Below are positions 2,992 to 15,710 of a stretch of 24,000 bases of DNA, in pieces. Within the stretch, counting starts at the first letter, position 1. Each line of letters opens with the position of its first letter. This stretch comes from an uncultured Candidatus Saccharibacteria bacterium (GTDB taxonomy: Bacteria > Patescibacteriota > Minisyncoccia > Phycocordibacterales > Phycocordibacteraceae). Both the position numbers and the translations under genes were made by a program. The stretch covers positions 1-24,000 of the forward strand of contig CAYQCB010000011.1 of NCBI GenBank assembly GCA_964415875.1, read 5' to 3'. Below the pieces are notes generated by a model that worked only from the letters and a program-made list of their open reading frames with translations, did not search any database and was not told where the DNA came from.

Positions 2992-3039
2992 CCATAAAAA
3001 TGAAAAACCGCGCTTTCGCGCGGTTTTTCATTTTTATGG
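2992..3039. terminator. Bidirectional intrinsic terminator shared by convergent nrdJ and rnpB
   Basis: A perfect 22-bp inverted repeat, ccataaaaatgaaaaaccgcgc / gcgcggtttttcatttttatgg, surrounds a tttc loop. The GC core is flanked by an A-run and a T-run, so a U-tract is available on both strands. Confidence 0.8.
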
Positions 3040-3414: not shown

Positions 3415-3504
3415 CAAAAACGAACTGTGGATGACGTGCCTTTTCATGGCGCGTGAGTTGTATACTGAACACCATTATACGTAGTAGTTTATTCCGCAGA
3501 AACC

Positions 3505-9375: not shown

Positions 9376-9407
9376 CGAGTCCTCGCTCCCGCGGTATACT
9401 GGTACGT

Positions 9408-11208: not shown

Positions 11209-11250
11209 CACAAAAGCGCCCGGGGCCTACAGGCCCCGGGCGCTTTTGTG
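11209..11250 (+). terminator. Intrinsic terminator after the glutaredoxin-like gene
   Basis: A perfect 19-bp stem, cacaaaagcgcccggggcc / ggccccgggcgcttttgtg, has the T-run inside and after the 3' arm. Confidence 0.8.
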
Positions 11251-11340: not shown

Positions 11341-11514
11341 CAAAAATCCCCACAGGGCTATGTGCCGACCAGTAAAAAAACAAAAACTGAGTTTAGAGGA
11401 GAGAGATTTTAGCTTCGTCCCCTGGATGCTTGCGCGCCCAGGCTCTGATGCTTTTCGCTCAAACAGTATTTAATTAATTCCACCCGTCGACCCATAGCCC
11501 TCTAGGGACTTGGT

Positions 11515-11565
11515 ACCTTTTCGTCCTTTTGGACTCATCAGCTCGAGCACACACTCGAGTAAGGC
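11515..11565 (-). ncRNA. Type III hammerhead ribozyme motif
   Basis: The minus-strand RNA reads GCCUUA/CUCGAG-UGUGUG-CUCGAG-CUGAUGA-GUCC-AAAA-GGAC-GAAA-AGGU. The full catalytic core is present, stems I and II are closed by loops, and stem III is open. Confidence 0.7.
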
Positions 11566-11603
11566 TAGGTTTTTTAGGGAAACCTACAAACCTGGGTGGG
11601 GAA

Positions 11604-11843
11604 TCATTGTCCCCACCACTCAGCAAACGGATCGAGCAGCGTCGGTGAGGCGTAGTGCACCGTCGGAGTGGCGACAGTCCTGCATTCATCGCGTAAGGCC
11701 TGCGCCACCAAAAACTCGAAGTGCGACACAAGCTCTCCCTGCTTTCTCAAGGCATATCGCGGAGCGGCGAGCGGCTCGAAAGTCACAATATTCGACACGC
11801 CATCATTTTCCATTTGGGCATTTCCCCATAGGGTGAGGGTCAT
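11604..11843 (-). CDS. Hypothetical protein, 79 aa (island ORF)
   Basis: MTLTLWGNAQMENDG...AEWWGQ. Its ATG overlaps the stop of the upstream 63-aa ORF (ATGA at 11840-11843). The longer 161-aa track version overlaps two better-supported ORFs, so I rejected it. Confidence 0.5.
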   Translation of the reverse strand: MTLTLWGNAQMENDGVSNIVTFEPLAAPRYALRKQGELVSHFEFLVAQALRDECRTVATPTVHYASPTLLDPFAEWWGQ

Positions 11844-12031
11844 TTTCCGTTGATAGCTCGCCCTAGGGCTACGAGAAGCCCTCCAATAGCACTGCGCATC
11901 AGGCGCACTGCTGCCAGGATTGGCCATCGGAAAACCGCAGCCGCTGCGTGGGGCCCACGAATCATCATGGCCGCTCCCACCAGCACCATCCAGAGAGCGG
12001 TCAGTGAGACGATAAGGTTTGAAAAGTCCAT
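11840..12031 (-). CDS. Small membrane protein, 63 aa with 2 predicted TM segments (island ORF)
   Basis: GAAAGGAG lies 7 nt upstream of the ATG. The sequence is hydrophobic (LIVSLTALWMVLVGAAMMI and AIGGLLVALG). Confidence 0.55.
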   Translation of the reverse strand: MDFSNLIVSLTALWMVLVGAAMMIRGPHAAAAVFRWPILAAVRLMRSAIGGLLVALGRAINGK

Positions 12032-12089
12032 GAAGACTCCTTTCTGTTTCGGGATGGCACCATTGCGACCCCCTTATGCCGCCCTGCAC

Positions 12090-12203
12090 CTATTGCAGGG
12101 CGGCATAAATTGGGGCGAGCAAGCTGCTCAGAAGCCAGTGATATTCGATGCCGAGCAGCACTGCTGCCGCGACGAGCGCAACTAGAAACAAAAAGCTATC
12201 CAC
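12090..12203 (-). CDS. Small hydrophobic peptide, 37 aa with a GTG start (island ORF; below the ORF-track size cutoff)
   Basis: Read by hand: AAGGAG-9 nt-GTG, then VDSFLFLVALVAAAVLLGIEYHWLLSSLLAPIYAALQ. The start is 4 nt after the stop of the 123-aa ORF. The last codons form the 5' arm of the 12074-12108 hairpin. Confidence 0.4.
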   Translation of the reverse strand: MDSFLFLVALVAAAVLLGIEYHWLLSSLLAPIYAALQ

Positions 12204-12207
12204 CAGC

Positions 12208-12579
12208 TTACTCTCCTTTCACCACCTCTCCCCACAGGAAGTCGGTGATCTTCCCAGCCAGTTCATCGGAGATCCCAATATCGACGAGGATCCCTTTTCC
12301 GACCTCGAGCGCCAGATCTTCCTCGCGGCTCCGCTTGCTGGTGACCTTTGCGGCCAGTTTCGGGTAGGCGGCCAAAAACCGTGCCTCCTTGGCGAAGTCA
12401 CGGCGATTTTTTGCGATGTCACGAAGACCATTCTTGAGACCATCGATGAAACCACCAAGGCTGTTCTCTGTGACCTCCACCAAAATGGAGATTTCCACGG
12501 AGGCGAGCTCCTTTTTTGTGCTTGCCTCTGACACCAACTGGGTCACAGCCTCAGTCCAGAGCTCGTTTGGAATAGCCAT
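12208..12579 (-). CDS. Hypothetical protein, 123 aa, predicted helical and acidic (island ORF)
   Basis: TAGGAG lies 10 nt upstream of the ATG. The composition is clean and coding-like. I recognise no family. Confidence 0.6.
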   Translation of the reverse strand: MAIPNELWTEAVTQLVSEASTKKELASVEISILVEVTENSLGGFIDGLKNGLRDIAKNRRDFAKEARFLAAYPKLAAKVTSKRSREEDLALEVGKGILVDIGISDELAGKITDFLWGEVVKGE

Positions 12580-12780
12580 GGCACGTTTCTCCTACCCCTG
12601 ATCCCCGGGCGCGGGTGCACCGTGTGGTGCAAAGGACACAGTAGGCGCGCGACTCATTTTATGAGTCGCGCGCCTATGAGTGCCCAGTACCATTCTCTAC
12701 CAACGCGCGAGTCTCGTGCGCTGGATAAAGCGGATGAACACCAGAACCAACTGAATGTTCACCCGAAGCTGCCAAACCAT

Positions 12781-12936
12781 ACAACGACACAGAGTGACAG
12801 AACTCTGAGCGAGGGCGGAGCTCATTCCGCGTGGGCCAGACGCTATCGCATTGGTTTCCTCCTTTGCGACGATTGTGTAGAAACTGCCGTGTCAGTTTCT
12901 ACGGAAAGAACAAGCCACCACACGGGGTGGGGGAGG
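12781..12936 (-). repeat. Copy A of the structured intergenic element (about 156 nt)
   Basis: It aligns with 13756-13935 in long identical blocks: acaacgacacagag, gacagaactctgagcgagggcgg, atcgcattggtttcctcctttgcga, and gtgtagaaactgccgtgtcagtttctacgg. It begins right after the stop codon of the 180-aa ORF. Confidence 0.85.
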
Positions 12937-13479
12937 CTAGACGGTCACCGGCCGCATCGGGTCGATGACCCCGGCCCCCTCGAGGGCCGTGATGAGGGCC
13001 CGGCCGAGCGCGGCGCGCTCAGCCTCCCCCTTCTGGTAGTTGGCGAGCCAGTCGACCGCTCTCGCGACCGACAGTTCGGAGGTCTCAAACGAGACCTCCG
13101 CCGCCTCCAGGGCGGAGGCGATCACCTCCGCCCTCCAGACGGATGCGCCCGGGAACGTCACCCGGGCGCGGTAACCACCGCCGGACGCGAGTCCGACGGC
13201 GATTTGCGTCGCCGATGAAGGGGTGGTCAACACGACCTCCCCCTGCTGCGTCGACTCCACCGTGGTGAAGTCGACGCAGTCCTGGGCGGAGACAAGTTCC
13301 GCCTCTAGCGTGCGGCAGTCGGAGGCGATAAACGCCCCCAACATGATGACAGCGAGCGCCTCGCGCTCCCCCAACGTCCCATTGAGGGACCCGAAGGGGG
13401 CGAATGCCCCCGCGAGGAACCTGACCGCCTCGACGGCGGTCAGGTTGGCCGACGAAATCTCAGTCACGATTTTGGCCAT
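12937..13479 (-). CDS. Hypothetical protein, 180 aa (island ORF)
   Basis: AAGGAGG lies 6 nt upstream of ATG 13479 (MAKIVTEISS). Codons are strongly GC3-biased. The upstream extension to 13557 lacks an RBS. Confidence 0.65.
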   Translation of the reverse strand: MAKIVTEISSANLTAVEAVRFLAGAFAPFGSLNGTLGEREALAVIMLGAFIASDCRTLEAELVSAQDCVDFTTVESTQQGEVVLTTPSSATQIAVGLASGGGYRARVTFPGASVWRAEVIASALEAAEVSFETSELSVARAVDWLANYQKGEAERAALGRALITALEGAGVIDPMRPVTV

Positions 13480-13729
13480 AATGGCCTCCTTTACTGGCCA
13501 TGTGCCCGGGGGCATACATACGGCCGATTGAACACTTGCTACGGGAATCCGCAGCAAGAAAGTCTGCGGGGAGCGTTACCTCCCCGATTGGTGCCGAGCG
13601 GAGTTGAATCACTCGGTCAATGAGCCCAGCGCCTTGCAGCGCGGGAAAGTCTGGGAATCGCACCTTGCGATCCCTTTCAAATTCTCCACGCGGGGTGAAG
13701 TGCTTGAAAGGGAAGGTCAACATAACCAT
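13460..13729 (-). CDS. Hypothetical protein, 89 aa (island ORF)
   Basis: GGAGGT lies 4 nt upstream of ATG 13729 (MVMLTFPFKHF). Its 3' end overlaps the next ORF by 20 nt in another frame. Confidence 0.5.
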   Translation of the reverse strand: MVMLTFPFKHFTPRGEFERDRKVRFPDFPALQGAGLIDRVIQLRSAPIGEVTLPADFLAADSRSKCSIGRMYAPGHMASKGGHYGQNRD

Positions 13730-13755
13730 GCTGACCTCCAAGCCGTCTAACCGAT

Positions 13756-13935
13756 ACAACGACACAGAGCGACAGAACTCTGAGCGAGGGCGGTGCTCAT
13801 CTCCGCACGGAGCAAGTACGGCCCAGGGGCCGTCACGTACATCGCATTGGTTTCCTCCTTTGCGATTGTTGTGTAGAAACTGCCGTGTCAGTTTCTACGG
13901 GTTAAAGAACAGCCCACCGCACGGGGTGGTTTCGG
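13756..13935 (-). repeat. Copy B of the structured intergenic element (about 180 nt)
   Basis: It has the same blocks as copy A plus about 20 extra nt that form their own hairpin (acggccc ct gggccgt). It begins right after the stop codon of the 198-aa ORF. Confidence 0.85.
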
Positions 13936-14532
13936 CTAGTCGACCCGTTTGATGCCGCTAAAGAACACGGCATCCAAGTCCTCGAATACCTCGTTAATTG
14001 CCAGTGCGGCGACGGGATTCGTTTCCGTCGCCGACTGGCCACGCATTACCGAGGCGAAGTTCCTCAGTCTTCCGAGCCGGAGCTCGTCGAGGCACCCCTG
14101 GAGGTAGGTTTGCCTCCCCCGGGGGTTCCCTTCGGCCGCCTTTTGGGCGGCACGAAAGGCCTCCTCGGAGGCCTTCACAAGGTGGTACTCGGGGTTCAGT
14201 CCGTAGGGCAGAGACCCGAAGGCCTCCATGTACAGCCGATGCGGAAAGCCCGCGAAGTCGCCCGTGAGGGCGTACTCTAGCACCACATCGATTGCGTCGG
14301 GGATCGAAACTCCCGCCGCCAAGAATTCACCCCGTACCATTGCGACAAATGCCGCAACGGTTGCCTCCCTTTGTGGGAGGTGCGCGATGTGCTGATCGCG
14401 CGCCTCCCTGTGCGCCATATCCTCGACGCGGTAAAAGCCCGCAGCGCGTGCCTTGGCCCGGGCCGCTTCCGCAGCGCGGCCGGTCAGAGCCTTGGCTCTG
14501 ACGACGATCGGGTCGTTCGAGAATCTCGCCAT
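13936..14532 (-). CDS. Hypothetical protein, 198 aa (island ORF)
   Basis: MARFSNDPIVVRAK... with GC3-rich codons. The start is uncertain because the RBS is weak (GGAAGG). ATG 14532 lies 8 nt after the stop of the possible 64-aa ORF. In-frame alternatives exist further upstream, as far as the track ORF start at 14661. Confidence 0.6.
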   Translation of the reverse strand: MARFSNDPIVVRAKALTGRAAEAARAKARAAGFYRVEDMAHREARDQHIAHLPQREATVAAFVAMVRGEFLAAGVSIPDAIDVVLEYALTGDFAGFPHRLYMEAFGSLPYGLNPEYHLVKASEEAFRAAQKAAEGNPRGRQTYLQGCLDELRLGRLRNFASVMRGQSATETNPVAALAINEVFEDLDAVFFSGIKRVD

Positions 14533-14539
14533 AATAACT

Positions 14540-14734
14540 TTACCTTCCATTCCAGGTAACATGCAGTACCGCGCATGTGCGGACGGCCACCCTTGTGACC
14601 TGGGAATCTTGCGATCCCTCGTACCGTACCGATTCGTCTTGTGGACACGGCGTGTCCACAAGTGGGGAATCAGTCCGGCAACGAGGAATAACAGTGCAGT
14701 CGCTCTTTTTGAGCAGTTGTTCTGCGTTACTCAT
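14540..14734 (-). CDS. Possible 64-aa ORF, or an untranslated structured leader
   Basis: MSNAEQLLKKSDC... has no convincing SD and contains the 11-bp perfect hairpin at 14638-14662. Its stop lies 8 nt before the next ATG. Confidence 0.25.
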   Translation of the reverse strand: MSNAEQLLKKSDCTVIPRCRTDSPLVDTPCPQDESVRYEGSQDSQVTRVAVRTCAVLHVTWNGR

Positions 14735-14836
14735 AGTTACCTATTCAGTTTTCAAGGTACCTTCTGCCTTCGCAGAGAGAAGTCGGAGGCGATGCAATAA
14801 TAGCTGCTCTCGCCAGCCGGCTTCTTCCAACGAAAA

Positions 14837-14870
14837 GGCGACCGATTTCTCCAGGGAGAAATCGGTCGCC
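14837..14870. terminator. Strong intrinsic terminator inside the island leader, bidirectional by sequence
   Basis: A perfect 15-bp stem, ggcgaccgatttctc / gagaaatcggtcgcc, has a 4-nt loop. It is flanked by aaaa on one side and tttt on the other. Confidence 0.75.
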
Positions 14871-14998
14871 TTTTCCCCAAATAGCGTAGCTATTTGGCGC
14901 CTGGGGCAGTGGGCCCCTGGCTTTGCGACACGACTTTCTCCTCTAAAAGAAAGTGTGTTTATTTACTGGGATGGAAGGTTCAACTAACTCGTACTGCT

Positions 14999-15026
14999 AG
15001 TATACATGAACCGTGAGATTTGTCAA
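14999..15026 (-). promoter_or_regulatory. Island promoter P1 (TTGACA-16 nt-TATACT)
   Basis: The minus strand reads acTTGACAaatctcacggttcatgTATACTag. The -35 is consensus, and the -10 matches the TATACT boxes seen upstream of backbone genes. Confidence 0.65.
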
Positions 15027-15077
15027 GTGCCTGGAGCTCTGCCTCTGCAACTGCCCGGAACTTGACTAACTGCAAAT

Positions 15078-15105
15078 AGTATACACGAAGGCGTATATTT
15101 GTCAA
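15078..15105 (-). promoter_or_regulatory. Island promoter P2 (TTGACA-16 nt-TATACT), a tandem copy 79 bp upstream of P1
   Basis: The minus strand reads acTTGACAaatatacgccttcgtgTATACTat. It shares ACTTGACAAAT and GTATACTA with P1. Confidence 0.6.
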
Positions 15106-15191
15106 GTATTTTCTATATCCACGCGTTTGCGCAAAAGCCGACTTTTTAAGGGTATACTGTCTGCATTATCCCCACTTAGCTTACCGACTTC

Positions 15192-15668
15192 ATGTTTAGA
15201 GACTCTGCCAATTTCATCAGCCGCTACTTCTACCGTCAACCAGCTGGCATGTTTTTCCTCAGGCTTGTTACGGGTTTGATTTTCATTATGCATGGTCTCA
15301 TGAAGCTGCAGTCGCCCGAGATGATGGCGGGTTTCTTTGGTACTCTTGGACTTCACCCCGCTCTTTTCTGGGTGTGGGCAATAGGACTGCTTGAAGTGGT
15401 GGGAGGCGCAGCGCTTATCCTAGGCGTTGCAGCGCGCGTCTTTGGCGGGCTGCTTGCCATAGAAATGATTGCGGCCATTTTCCTTACGGGTCTTGGCAGA
15501 GGGTTTGGTGCGCATGAGTTTGAACTCTTGCTGGCAGTTGCTGCACTTGCTATAGGGCTCTCAGGTAGCGGACGCTGGTCGCTCTACAATCACAGTTGTG
15601 TGCGATGCGGTGGAGTCTTTTGCAATGGCGACACCTGTGTCGTCGCTGTAAGCGAAGAAGTGGTGTAA
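15192..15668 (+). CDS. DoxX-family membrane protein
   Basis: FFLRLVTGLIFIMHGLMKL plus four TM segments is typical of DoxX. The C-terminus is Cys-rich (CVRCGGVFCNGDTC). A TATACT box lies at 15153-15158. Confidence 0.75.
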   Translation: MFRDSANFISRYFYRQPAGMFFLRLVTGLIFIMHGLMKLQSPEMMAGFFGTLGLHPALFWVWAIGLLEVVGGAALILGVAARVFGGLLAIEMIAAIFLTGLGRGFGAHEFELLLAVAALAIGLSGSGRWSLYNHSCVRCGGVFCNGDTCVVAVSEEVV

Positions 15669-15710
15669 CGCTCCTTGTGGAATTGAGCTGGTACACAGGC
15701 GGTAAAAAGT

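What the first reader, a model, noticed from the sequence alone, without database searches (positions are those of the whole stretch)
14837..15105. Tandem near-consensus promoters feeding a structured RNA of about 125-205 nt that ends in a strong terminator before the first island gene
Two copies of about 33 bp, ACTTGACAAAT-N13-GTATACTA (P1 at 14999-15026 and P2 at 15078-15105, 79 bp apart), face the island. Downstream on the minus strand, the transcript contains GAGGAG-6 nt-GTG opening a 13-codon ORF (VSQSQGPTAPGAK). It then has a GGGGC/GCCCC hairpin, a perfect 9-bp hairpin CCAAATAGC-tac-GCTATTTGG (about 14877-14897), and the perfect 15-bp terminator followed by UUUUCG (14837-14870). Either this is a stand-alone small RNA, or it is an attenuator or leader-peptide switch that gates the whole island operon.
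Basis: partly seen in the sequence, partly recalled or inferred. Interest (0 to 1): 0.62.

Follow-up and report, generated by a model that had tools for sequence, protein, structure and literature searches.

The report
Conserved promoter-leader-terminator heading variable ORFan genes
Two strong tandem promoters in an uncultivated Paceibacteria (CPR) bacterium drive a highly structured RNA leader of about 390 nt with a strong built-in terminator; related strains keep this leader while the unknown genes behind it differ completely, so it looks like a fixed expression and control platform for swappable genes.

Summary
P1 (14999-15026) and P2 (15078-15105) are the only two 11/12 sigma-70 matches in the 24 kb. 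Their -10 (GTATACT) is the motif also found upstream of three host genes. The hairpins and the 20-bp terminator (14832-14875) exist; the 163-nt RNA folds with z = -7.9. It matches no Rfam family.

Related metagenome contigs (strains B, C, D) keep both promoter boxes, hp1, hp3 and the terminator stem at 95-100% identity, while four-fold codon sites in the neighbouring DoxX gene are 50-57% diverged. Loops and linkers vary.

The RNA does not end functionally at the terminator. The next 230 nt (S1-S4, 14825-14610) are also conserved. S4 has four compensatory pairs, and its tip is swapped between an 11-bp hairpin, a GAAA loop and a UUCG loop. So readthrough transcripts matter.

The 3' arm of hp1 can pair with the terminator 5' arm (-22 to -24 kcal/mol, shuffle p about 0.0007), giving attenuator geometry.

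The genes downstream are mutually unrelated ORFans in each strain, each followed by a conserved structured repeat.

Best reading: a terminator-gated leader for a variable cassette locus. The signal is unknown, and no expression data exist. A leader-peptide mechanism is weakly supported, and a stand-alone sRNA role is not excluded.

The parts
15078..15105 (-). P2: upstream promoter. TTGACA-16 nt-TATACT inside the conserved box ACTTGACAAAT-N12-GTATACT. Predicted start about 15071.
   Evidence: The boxes are conserved in strains B, C and D while the spacer varies. The -10 is TATACC in L002 and L003.
14999..15026 (-). P1: main promoter, with the same box. Predicted start about 14992.
   Evidence: Identical to strain C including the spacer, and one spacer change in strain B. 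GTATACT is the recurrent host -10.
14970..14981 (-). Conserved 12-nt motif GAACCUUCCAUC in the otherwise variable, unpaired 5' tail. It looks like an anti-SD sequence (CCUUCC).
   Evidence: Invariant in W, B and C while flanking tail positions change.
14928..14958 (-). hp1: a 13-bp hairpin that buries the SD GAGGAG (14943-14938) and the GUG (14931-14929). Its 3' arm is the candidate antiterminator strand.
   Evidence: 100% identical in all strains. It pairs with the terminator 5' arm at -22 to -23.7 kcal/mol, shuffle p 0.0007.
14890..14931 (-). 13-codon mini-ORF (VSQSQGPTAPGAK) plus stop. Coding status uncertain.
   Evidence: It is 13-14 codons in W, L003 and C; indels keep the frame. The stop is lost in L001 and L002.
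14899..14921 (-). hp2: variable GC hairpin.
   Evidence: One compensatory pair, G-C to A-U. 78% identity between strains.
14877..14897 (-). hp3: perfect 9-bp hairpin CCAAAUAGC-UAC-GCUAUUUGG. It contains the mini-ORF stop codon.
   Evidence: Invariant except for one mismatch in L001 and L002.
14832..14875 (-). T: intrinsic terminator. The core is a 15-bp stem (14837-14870) followed by UUUUCGUU. It extends to 20 bp through A/U-tract pairing.
   Evidence: The stem is conserved (39 of 40 nt in B, 40 of 40 in C and D) while the loop changes from CCUG to UUCU. Host gene-end terminators at 2992-3039 and 11209-11250 have the same build.
14778..14825 (-). S1: post-terminator helix. The outer part is invariant and the inner part varies. 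It is the last element shared before strain D diverges.
14735..14776 (-). S2 (14763-14776) and S2b (14735-14761) hairpins.
   Evidence: S2b has two compensatory pairs in strain C. Both are absent from strain D.
14696..14725 (-). S3: nested hairpin.
   Evidence: The loop is AAAAA in W, GCAA in B and C, and GUAA in D. One outer pair is C-G in W and G-C in D by manual pairing.
14610..14693 (-). S4: helix of about 24 bp. Its 3' strand ends in the J motif GGGAUCGCA. The apical part (14636-14666) is variable.
   Evidence: Four compensatory pairs and four G-U pairs unchanged in all four strains. The tip is an 11-bp hairpin in W, a GAAA loop in B and a stem with a UUCG loop in C.
13936..14532 (-). First cassette gene, a 198-aa ORFan.
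   Evidence: No homologue in 5.8 billion proteins or in 1.84 billion cluster representatives. No Pfam, PHROG or PADLOC hit. Replaced by unrelated genes in strains B and C.
13740..13945 (-). Cassette-flanking repeat, copy A: a terminator-like hairpin (Ha), a 10-bp hairpin (Hb), a hairpin with a GGA-rich loop (Hc) and a fourth hairpin (Hd).
12937..13479 (-). Second cassette gene, a 180-aa ORFan.
12765..12945 (-). Cassette-flanking repeat, copy B.
11840..12203 (-). Conserved distal small membrane-protein genes: 37 aa (12090-12203) and 63 aa (11840-12031).
   Evidence: 76% and 65% identical in strain C. Also present in strain B.

Best explanation
**What it is.** A conserved transcription and control platform at the head of a strain-variable ORFan cassette locus. 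The locus sits in the tRNA-Arg(CCU) insertion hotspot of a Paceibacteria (CPR) genome.

**How it most likely works.**
- P1 is backed up by P2. Both combine the host -10 (GTATACT) with a perfect -35, so they should fire strongly.
- The nascent RNA folds hp1, which hides an SD and a GUG. It then folds hp2, hp3 and a very stable terminator T.
- By default most transcripts stop at about 14832, leaving an RNA of about 161 nt (about 240 nt from P2).
- A fraction of polymerases reads through. This fraction is possibly raised when hp1 is opened, because its 3' arm (GGAGAAAGUCGUGUCGC) can then pair with the 5' arm of T.
- Readthrough transcripts carry a second conserved structured domain (S1-S4, ending in the J motif) into whatever cassette genes lie downstream.
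- T therefore gates, or at least throttles, expression of the whole array.

**Shown.** The sequence features; their exceptional match to the promoter consensus; the conservation pattern; covariation in the post-terminator domain; the existence and statistical excess of the alternative pairing.

**Inferred.** That the promoters fire, that T terminates, that readthrough is regulated, and what the signal is.
For: **Promoters**
- They are the only two 11/12 matches in 24 kb.
- The extended box occurs twice against 0.1 expected.
- GTATACT occurs 5 times against 0.62 expected. The other three copies lie upstream of host genes in the right orientation.
- The boxes are conserved in four strains while the P2 spacer and the region between the promoters drift to 69% identity.

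**Terminator**
- It has the same architecture as the host gene-end terminators.
- The stem is kept and the loop is replaced.
- The U-tract is better on the minus strand (UUUUCGUU) than on the plus strand (UUUUCCCC).

**Structure under selection**
- z = -7.9 for the short RNA and -10.0 for the 473-nt leader.
- Between W and B, 5 of 170 paired positions changed against 17 of 90 unpaired positions, Fisher p = 2.5e-5.
- 96.5% of cells are paired. Five pairs show compensatory change, against a shuffle mean of 2.0 and 0-1 in the slid controls.
- S4 has four compensatory pairs plus G-U pairs unchanged in all four strains.
- Loops are swapped for GNRA and UNCG tetraloops, which read that way only on the minus strand.
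- The neutral background is saturated: four-fold sites are 50-57% different and DoxX is 76-80% identical at the nucleotide level.

**Readthrough is needed**
- No promoter-like site lies between T and the genes.
- Conserved RNA structure lies directly after T.

**Antiterminator**
- Duplex energy -22 to -23.7 kcal/mol, shuffle p 0.0007.
- Before the 3' arm of T is made, the nascent RNA has two nearly equal states: -48.4 kcal/mol with hp1 formed and -46.8 kcal/mol with the antiterminator formed.

**Platform role**
- Strains B and C keep the leader but carry unrelated genes behind it. In strain D the sequence after S1 differs as well, but its contig ends at the J motif, before any cassette gene.
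Against: - There are no transcript data of any kind.
- hp1, hp3 and T never vary, so they carry no covariation support of their own.
- Only three or four related haplotypes exist, all from short metagenome contigs. Strain B was joined from two contigs through a 30-nt overlap.
- A perfect 20-bp stem is much stronger than typical regulated terminators and could be unconditional.
- No sensor was identified: no aptamer family, no regulatory codon run, and no partner protein.
- The G-to-A change in strain B weakens both the terminator and the antiterminator.
- MFE does not distinguish the two strands.
- The high identity of hp1, hp3 and T could partly reflect recent exchange of this module between strains rather than selection.
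Confidence: 0.55

Rival explanations
1. Stand-alone small RNA gene. P1 and P2 together with T form a complete unit that makes an RNA of 161 or 240 nt, and its job is in trans. For example, the conserved single-stranded GAACCUUCCAUC (anti-SD-like) tail could pair with the strong SD regions of cassette mRNAs. The cassette genes would be transcribed independently.
For: - The unit has its own near-consensus promoters and a terminator of the same class as host gene-end terminators.
- The 34-nt 5' tail is unpaired in the MFE and contains a 12-nt invariant block.
- In the window the tail matches the RBS of the 198-aa gene at 13 of 14 positions (I16). Duplex energy is -21.8 kcal/mol and shuffle p is 0.002-0.012.
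- In strain D the promoter-to-S1 module is separated from S3/S4 by 404 nt of unrelated sequence, so it behaves as a separable module.
Against: - No promoter-like site was found for the cassette genes.
- The conserved, covarying structure directly downstream of T implies transcripts that cross T.
- The tail-RBS duplex ranks only about 13th among some 2,400 minus-strand windows.
- That pairing cannot be conserved, because B and C carry other genes and other RBS contexts.
Confidence: 0.2
2. Leader-peptide (ribosome-mediated) attenuation. Translation of the 13-14 codon ORF decides whether T forms.
For: - A strong SD lies 6 nt from the GUG.
- The ORF is kept at 13-14 codons in W, L003 and C. C carries an in-frame 3-nt insertion, and B carries a frame-restoring pair of indels.
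- The ORF start lies in the candidate antiterminator strand.
Against: - The stop codon is lost in L001 and L002, which extends the ORF through T.
- There are no repeated regulatory codons.
- The SD and GUG are sequestered in the invariant hp1.
- The stop codon lies 14 nt before the base of T, so a terminating ribosome would barely touch the stem.
- Frame conservation can be explained by the constraints on hp2 and hp3.
Confidence: 0.1
3. One long structured non-coding leader of about 390 nt in which 'T' is only a rigid helix, for example for RNA stability, processing or protein binding. Under this reading polymerase does not stop there to any useful degree.
For: - Conserved structure continues without a break on both sides of T.
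- Termination behaviour of CPR RNA polymerase is untested.
- The U-tract has only four consecutive U.
Against: - T is built exactly like the hairpins that follow the host glutaredoxin and ribonucleotide-reductase genes.
- Its sequence is invariant rather than covarying, unlike the purely structural helices S2b, S3 and S4.
- The A-tract, stem and U-tract layout is the classic intrinsic-terminator signature.
Confidence: 0.1
4. DNA-level element. The palindromes and repeats would be recombination sites of an integron-like or other cassette-capture system. The promoter-like boxes would then be incidental, or would act only as a Pc-like promoter.
For: - Same-orientation ORFan cassettes are each followed by a conserved repeat of about 190 nt.
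- Cassette content differs between strains, with sharp junctions at the J motif and after S1.
- The locus lies in an insertion hotspot next to tRNA-Arg.
Against: - None of the roughly 30 window ORFs scanned against Pfam is a recombinase.
- The repeat ends do not consistently fit the attC R''/R' consensus (read by eye from the alignments).
- G-U pairs unchanged in all four strains and GNRA/UNCG loops point to RNA, not DNA, as the selected structure.
Confidence: 0.05

Closest known systems
Terminator/antiterminator transcription attenuators in 5' leaders (trp- and pyrBI-type leaders, riboswitch and T-box expression platforms)
   Same: - A promoter-proximal intrinsic terminator lies ahead of the coding genes.
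- An upstream strand (the hp1 3' arm) can pair with the terminator 5' arm.
- That strand is itself held in an earlier hairpin. This is the 1:2 / 2:3 / 3:4 geometry.
   Different: - No sensor is recognisable: no Rfam aptamer, no T-box, and no regulatory codon run.
- The terminator stem is 20 bp and perfect, far stronger than usual regulated terminators.
- Two extra hairpins sit between strands 2 and 3.
- A second conserved structured domain of 230 nt follows the terminator.
- The regulated genes are not a fixed operon but strain-specific ORFans.
Phage lambda pR'-6S RNA-tR' unit (late-gene control by Q antitermination). This comparison rests on my own knowledge.
   Same: A strong constitutive promoter makes a short, abundant RNA that ends at a strong terminator just upstream of a long set of genes. 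Those genes are expressed only by readthrough, and further terminators lie inside the downstream unit.
   Different: - No Q-like protein or binding element was identified.
- No phage genes are present: no PHROG hits and no match to phage or IMG/VR collections.
- The host is a CPR bacterium.
Integron platform (Pc/P2 promoters plus attI, followed by attC-flanked promoterless cassettes) and CALIN arrays. This comparison rests on my own knowledge.
   Same: - Tandem promoters at a fixed platform.
- Same-orientation, mostly ORFan cassettes of about 0.6-1 kb.
- Each cassette is followed by a conserved structured repeat that begins at the stop codon.
- Cassette content differs between close strains.
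   Different: - No intI in the window.
- The repeats are about 190 nt with four separate hairpins rather than a single imperfect attC hairpin.
- The R''/R' core sequences are not consistently present.
- The selected structures look like RNA, with G-U pairs and GNRA/UNCG loops.
sRNAs made by premature termination in 5' leaders, such as riboswitch-derived sRNAs like Listeria SreA/SreB. This comparison rests on my own knowledge.
   Same: The terminated leader fragment could have a second life as a trans-acting RNA. It has a conserved single-stranded motif.
   Different: No target could be validated, and the only good target pairing is specific to one strain.

Membership tests
Sigma-70-type promoter | -35 and -10 hexamers close to TTGACA and TATAAT, 16-18 nt apart, facing a transcribed unit | tested here: met
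   11/12 with 16-nt spacers at both sites. They are unique in the window. The -10 GTATACT is shared with three host gene upstream regions. The hexamers are conserved in four strains.
Sigma-70-type promoter | Transcription actually starts there | not testable with these tools
   No transcriptome data are available.
Intrinsic (Rho-independent) terminator | Stable GC-containing stem-loop immediately followed by a U-tract on the transcribed strand | tested here: met
   A 15-bp core stem (20 bp with the A/U tracts) is followed by UUUUCGUU. Same build as the host gene-end hairpins. The simple scan did not list it; I attribute this to the U-tract being counted inside the extended stem.
Terminator/antiterminator attenuator | Mutually exclusive alternative pairing that sequesters the terminator 5' arm | tested here: met
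   hp1 3' arm against the T 5' arm gives -22 to -23.7 kcal/mol. 0.07% of shuffles are as good. The pairing is kept in C (-19.9) and weakened in B (-16.1).
Terminator/antiterminator attenuator | An identifiable sensor: ligand aptamer, tRNA or protein site, or a leader peptide with regulatory codons | tested here: not met
   No Rfam family at the gathering threshold or at E < 10. The mini-ORF has no codon runs, and its stop is lost in L001 and L002.
Any described RNA family (Rfam 15) | Covariance-model match at or near the gathering score | tested here: not met
   Only chance-level microRNA and snoRNA hits on the palindrome. Across the whole window only RNase P RNA and three tRNAs are found.
Integron / CALIN cassette array | IntI tyrosine recombinase next to the platform | tested here: not met
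   None of the roughly 30 window ORFs scanned against Pfam has a recombinase domain. DoxX occupies the divergent position.
Integron / CALIN cassette array | attC sites: a single imperfect hairpin with R'' RYYYAAC and R' GTTRRRY cores | tested here: inconclusive
   Checked by eye only, on the alignments; no attC model was run. Some copies fit (strain B 5' GTCTAAC; window copy A 3' GTTAGAC), but copy B and strain C do not. The element folds as several small hairpins.
Integron / CALIN cassette array | Array of same-orientation promoterless cassettes whose content varies between strains | tested here: met
Type III toxin-antitoxin (ToxIN-like) | Tandem RNA repeats, then a terminator, then a ToxN-family endoribonuclease | tested here: not met
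   No tandem repeat lies within the RNA. The 198-aa protein has no Pfam or PADLOC hit.

The most novel reading that the evidence does not exclude
The locus could be a previously undescribed, integrase-independent gene-cassette system of CPR bacteria. It would consist of three parts. The first is a fixed promoter, leader RNA and terminator platform. The second is a set of conserved RNA modules flanking every cassette: the S4/J hairpin in front, and the terminator, the Hb hairpin and the GGA-loop hairpin behind. The third is a set of hypervariable, mutually unrelated ORFan genes that are exchanged between strains. The structured RNAs would both control expression and define, or even mediate, the exchange junctions.
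Probability: 0.1. Interest if true: 0.85.

Novelty: new variant of a known kind. Interest (0 to 1): 0.58.

Why it matters
- I found no literature on promoters, terminators or regulatory RNAs in CPR/Patescibacteria. Two full-text searches gave nothing relevant.
- This locus gives a concrete host -10 motif (GTATACT) and a host terminator architecture.
- It also gives a candidate structured leader of about 390 nt with comparative support. All of these can be tested in vitro with purified polymerase or in metatranscriptomes.
- The leader heads a site where close strains carry completely different unknown genes. It therefore offers a handle on how these reduced-genome symbionts express and police strain-specific accessory genes.
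- It also defines conserved flanks that could be used to fish more cassettes out of raw read archives.

Tried and rejected
**Searches that found nothing**
- Rfam at the gathering and the E-value thresholds gave no family.
- Pfam, PHROGs, PADLOC and PDB searches on the island proteins gave nothing beyond one marginal PADLOC match (E 0.011) for the 123-aa protein.
- Homologue searches for the 198-aa and 180-aa proteins returned only the queries themselves.
- AlphaFold2 on the 198-aa protein gave pLDDT 43, which is unusable, so no fold search was run.
- Phage and plasmid BLAST gave no match.
- Exact-pattern scans of IMG/VR and JGI metagenomes for hp1 and for the repeat hairpin gave no match.
- The GTDB scan with DoxX found nothing. 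The scan with LepA returned 80 family-level relatives. blastn and nhmmer find neither the leader nor the repeat in them.
- Literature searches gave nothing relevant.

**Ideas considered and rejected**
- *Pairing of the 5' tail with the RBS of the first gene as the general mechanism.* It is strain-specific and only about 13th best in the window.
- *The 64-aa ORF (14734-14540) as a gene.* It is frameshifted in strain B and is not in the protein collection.
- *A terminator that serves a plus-strand gene.* There is no credible plus-strand gene upstream, and the plus-strand U-tract is poorer.
- *A 14-bp inverted repeat (11392-11405 against 14934-14947) as the ends of a mobile element.* About 1.5 such pairs are expected by chance in 4.4 kb (my estimate, based).
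- *Using MFE asymmetry to choose the strand.* It is not decisive.
Full report
**1. Organism and setting**

The window carries core genes: ribonucleotide reductase, RNase P RNA, MurJ, LepA, glutaredoxin, a class I aminoacyl-tRNA synthetase (Pfam tRNA-synt_1) and TsaD. LepA is 71-80% identical to Paceibacteria/Kaiserbacteria MAGs, so this is a CPR/Patescibacteria genome.

In 55 relatives the local gene order is glutaredoxin, tRNA-Arg(CCU), a 97-aa gene, tRNA-Phe, DUF2914. The gap between tRNA-Arg and the 97-aa gene can be as short as about 20 nt but ranges up to 5 kb with unrelated cargo. In the window this slot holds 4.4 kb. It contains DoxX on the plus strand (15192-15668). It also contains a GC-richer 'island' on the minus strand (11342 to about 15110), whose annotated proteins of 198, 89, 180 and 123 aa are singletons in the protein collection. 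For the 198-aa and 180-aa proteins, homologue searches also found nothing. The finding lies between DoxX and the island.

**2.

- *Promoters.* P1 (14999-15026) and P2 (15078-15105) are TTGACA-16-TATACT, 11/12. They are the only sites above 10/12 in 24 kb. The extended pattern occurs twice against 0.1 expected.
- *A 163-nt stretch around the predicted 161-nt P1 RNA.* It folds into hp1, hp2, hp3 and a 20-bp terminator at -74.5 kcal/mol, z = -7.9.

**3. Are the promoters believable in this organism?**

GTATACT occurs five times in the window against 0.62 expected, and 0 of 100 shuffles reach five. Besides P1 and P2, the copies sit upstream of the TPR gene, upstream of the DivIC-like gene (spaced so that the mRNA would be leaderless) and upstream of DoxX. 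All three are in the correct orientation.

So GTATACT is very likely the host -10. P1 and P2 are special because they add a perfect -35.

**4. Is the terminator believable?**

The window has two other perfect palindromes of 20-22 bp flanked by A and U tracts. One lies between the reductase gene and the RNase P gene (2992-3039). The other follows the glutaredoxin gene (11209-11250). The hairpin at 14832-14875 is of the same class.

Its U-tract is better on the minus strand. No credible plus-strand gene runs into it.

**5. Relatives of the locus**

Nothing related exists in Rfam, the phage, plasmid, IMG/VR or JGI collections, or the 80 family-level MAG loci. Short Logan contigs from two sequencing projects do carry it.

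- *Strain B.* L001-L003 were found through DoxX. L085 was found through a variant of the 63-aa protein. L001 and L085 overlap by 30 nt.
- *Strain C.* A single 3,085-nt contig, L090, spans DoxX, the leader, the cassettes and the distal genes.
- *Strain D.* L092 is 99% identical to C up to helix S1 and then different.

Neutral divergence is near saturation. Four-fold degenerate sites of DoxX differ at 56% (window against B) and 57% (window against C). DoxX is 80% and 76% identical at the nucleotide level.

**6. Conservation pattern**

Conserved against that background:

| Element | Identity or state |
|---|---|
| P1 box | 96-100%, including its spacer |
| P2 hexamers | conserved, except that the -10 is TATACC in L002 and L003 |
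| hp1 | 100% in all strains |
| hp3 | 95-100% |
| Terminator stem | 39-40 of 40 nt |
| 12-nt block GAACCUUCCAUC in the 5' tail | invariant |

Variable:

| Element | Identity or state |
|---|---|
| P2 spacer | varies |
| Region between the promoters | 69% |
| Rest of the 5' tail | varies |
| hp2 | 78% |
| hp1-hp2 linker | varies |
| Terminator loop | CCUG or UUCU |

Between the window and strain B, substitutions hit 5 of 170 paired positions and 17 of 90 unpaired positions (p = 2.5e-5). This interleaving of invariant stems with saturated loops within 160 nt argues for purifying selection rather than a recent transfer of the whole segment.

The caveat is that hp1, hp3 and T never vary. They therefore have no covariation support. 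They may be constrained at the sequence level, as expected if they take part in alternative pairings or are bound by a factor.

**7. The RNA continues past the terminator**

The 230 nt after T (14825-14610) form helices S1, S2, S2b, S3 and S4, and these are conserved too.

- On the three-strain alignment, 96.5% of cells pair. Five pairs show compensatory change, against a shuffle mean of 2.0 (2 of 500 shuffles reach five) and 0-1 in the slid controls.
- With strain D added, S4 alone has four compensatory pairs and four G-U pairs unchanged in all four strains.
- The tip of S4 is an 11-bp perfect hairpin in the window, a GAAA tetraloop in B and a short stem with a UUCG loop in C.
- The S3 loop is AAAAA in the window, GCAA in B and C, and GUAA in D.
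- GNRA and UNCG loops and the conserved G-U pairs exist only on the minus-strand RNA. This fixes the strand and the molecule, although MFE alone does not.

No promoter-like site lies between T and the genes. These downstream structures therefore imply that transcripts starting at P1 or P2 cross T.

**8. Attenuator geometry**

The hp1 3' arm and the bases after it (GGAGAAAGUCGUGUCGC) resemble the 3' arm of T (GGAGAAAUCGGUCGC). They can pair with the 5' arm of T at -22 to -23.7 kcal/mol, and only 0.07% of shuffled upstream sequences do as well.

Before the 3' arm of T is made, the two states are nearly equal in energy: -48.4 kcal/mol with hp1 formed and -46.8 kcal/mol with the antiterminator formed. 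hp1 forms first, so termination is the default. Anything that opens hp1 or captures its 5' arm would favour readthrough. What does this is unknown.

The mini-ORF is a weak candidate for the sensor. It is kept at 13-14 codons in three of the four distinct haplotypes, but its stop is lost in the fourth (carried by L001 and L002). It has no regulatory codons, and its SD and GUG are buried in hp1.

**9. What the leader heads**

The genes behind the leader differ completely between strains. The window has proteins of 198, 180 and 123 aa. Strain B has one of 194 aa. Strain C has proteins of 188 and 185 aa. No pair among them is similar.

Most cassette genes (198 aa and 180 aa in the window, 194 aa in B, 188 aa in C) are followed by a conserved repeat of about 190 nt that starts at the stop codon. 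The 185-aa gene of strain C is followed by a different terminator hairpin instead. The repeat contains:

- a terminator-like hairpin;
- a 10-bp hairpin, Hb, with two compensatory pairs in strain C;
- a hairpin, Hc, whose stem differs in each copy while its loop keeps AAGGA;
- a fourth hairpin.

A hairpin module ending in GGGAUCGCA, the J motif, recurs in front of several genes. It marks the junction where strain B switches from leader to cargo.

The distal small membrane-protein genes are conserved. None of the roughly 30 window ORFs scanned against Pfam is a recombinase.

The finding is therefore the conserved head of a modular, strain-variable cassette locus.

**10. Verdict**

The most likely reading (about 0.55) is a strong-promoter, terminator-gated structured leader that controls a variable ORFan array. 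The signal is unknown.

Rivals are a stand-alone sRNA (0.2), ribosome-mediated attenuation (0.1), a non-terminating structural helix within one long leader (0.1) and a DNA-level recombination platform (0.05).

It belongs to no described RNA family. In kind it is an attenuator-type leader, but its size, its two-domain layout and its role as a fixed platform for swappable unknown genes in a CPR bacterium are unusual.

**Limits**

No expression data exist. Only three or four haplotypes are available, and all come from short metagenome contigs.

Noticed in passing
window 13740-13945 and 12765-12945 (minus strand); L085 750-935; L090 1778-1973: A structured repeat of about 190 nt starts at the stop codon of most cassette genes. 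It contains a terminator-like hairpin CCACC-N6-GGUGG with a U-rich tail. It also contains the invariant 10-bp hairpin GUAGAAACUG/CAGUUUCUAC, which has two compensatory pairs in strain C, and a hairpin whose stem differs in every copy while its loop keeps AAGGA.
   Followed up: partly
window 13460-13729 (minus strand): The annotated 89-aa gene is probably not a gene. 57 nt inside it (13675-13619) are 100% identical to the 5' UTR of the unrelated 194-aa gene in strain B. The region contains a long hairpin that ends in the J motif.
   Followed up: partly
window 14602-14612, 13660-13680 and 12060-12085; L090 2620-2650: The motif GGGRUYGCA(AKG)GUGCSAUYCCC (the 'J box') recurs 25-100 nt upstream of several start codons in the locus. 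It coincides with the junction where strain B switches cargo.
   Followed up: partly
window 3460-3466, 9394-9400 and 15152-15158 (plus strand): GTATACT appears to be the host -10 element. The copy at 9394 lies 7 nt before the ATG of the DivIC-like gene, which predicts a leaderless mRNA. These host promoters have no recognisable -35.
   Followed up: partly
window 2992-3039 and 11209-11250: Perfect palindromes of 20-22 bp with flanking A and U tracts act as apparently bidirectional terminators at the ends of core genes.
   Followed up: no
window 11342-15710; loci L005-L084: The site just downstream of tRNA-Arg(CCU) is an insertion hotspot across Paceibacteria. The gap ranges from about 20 nt to 5 kb, with unrelated cargo in different MAGs whose products include large membrane-type proteins; these were not annotated. 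No integrase was seen in the window.
   Followed up: partly
window 14540-14734 (minus strand): The 64-aa ORF in the post-terminator leader is not coding. It has a 1-nt indel in strain B, it is absent from the protein collection, and it overlaps the conserved RNA helices S3 and S4.
   Followed up: yes
L092 (reverse complement), about 404 nt after helix S1: Strain D carries 404 nt of unrelated sequence between the promoter-to-S1 module and the S3/S4 module. Only short ORFs (up to 58 aa) lie in it, along with a TTGACA-containing promoter-like stretch.
   Followed up: no
window 12090-12203 and 11840-12031; L090 2670-2978: The two conserved small membrane-protein genes (37 aa and 63-64 aa) are in opposite order in the window and in strain C. 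This indicates rearrangement inside the conserved distal part.
   Followed up: no
window 11392-11405 against 14934-14947: A 14-bp inverted repeat (13 of 14 complementary) links the island end next to tRNA-Arg with the hp1 loop and 3' arm. About 1.5 such pairs are expected by chance in this region (my estimate), so it is probably coincidence.
   Followed up: partly
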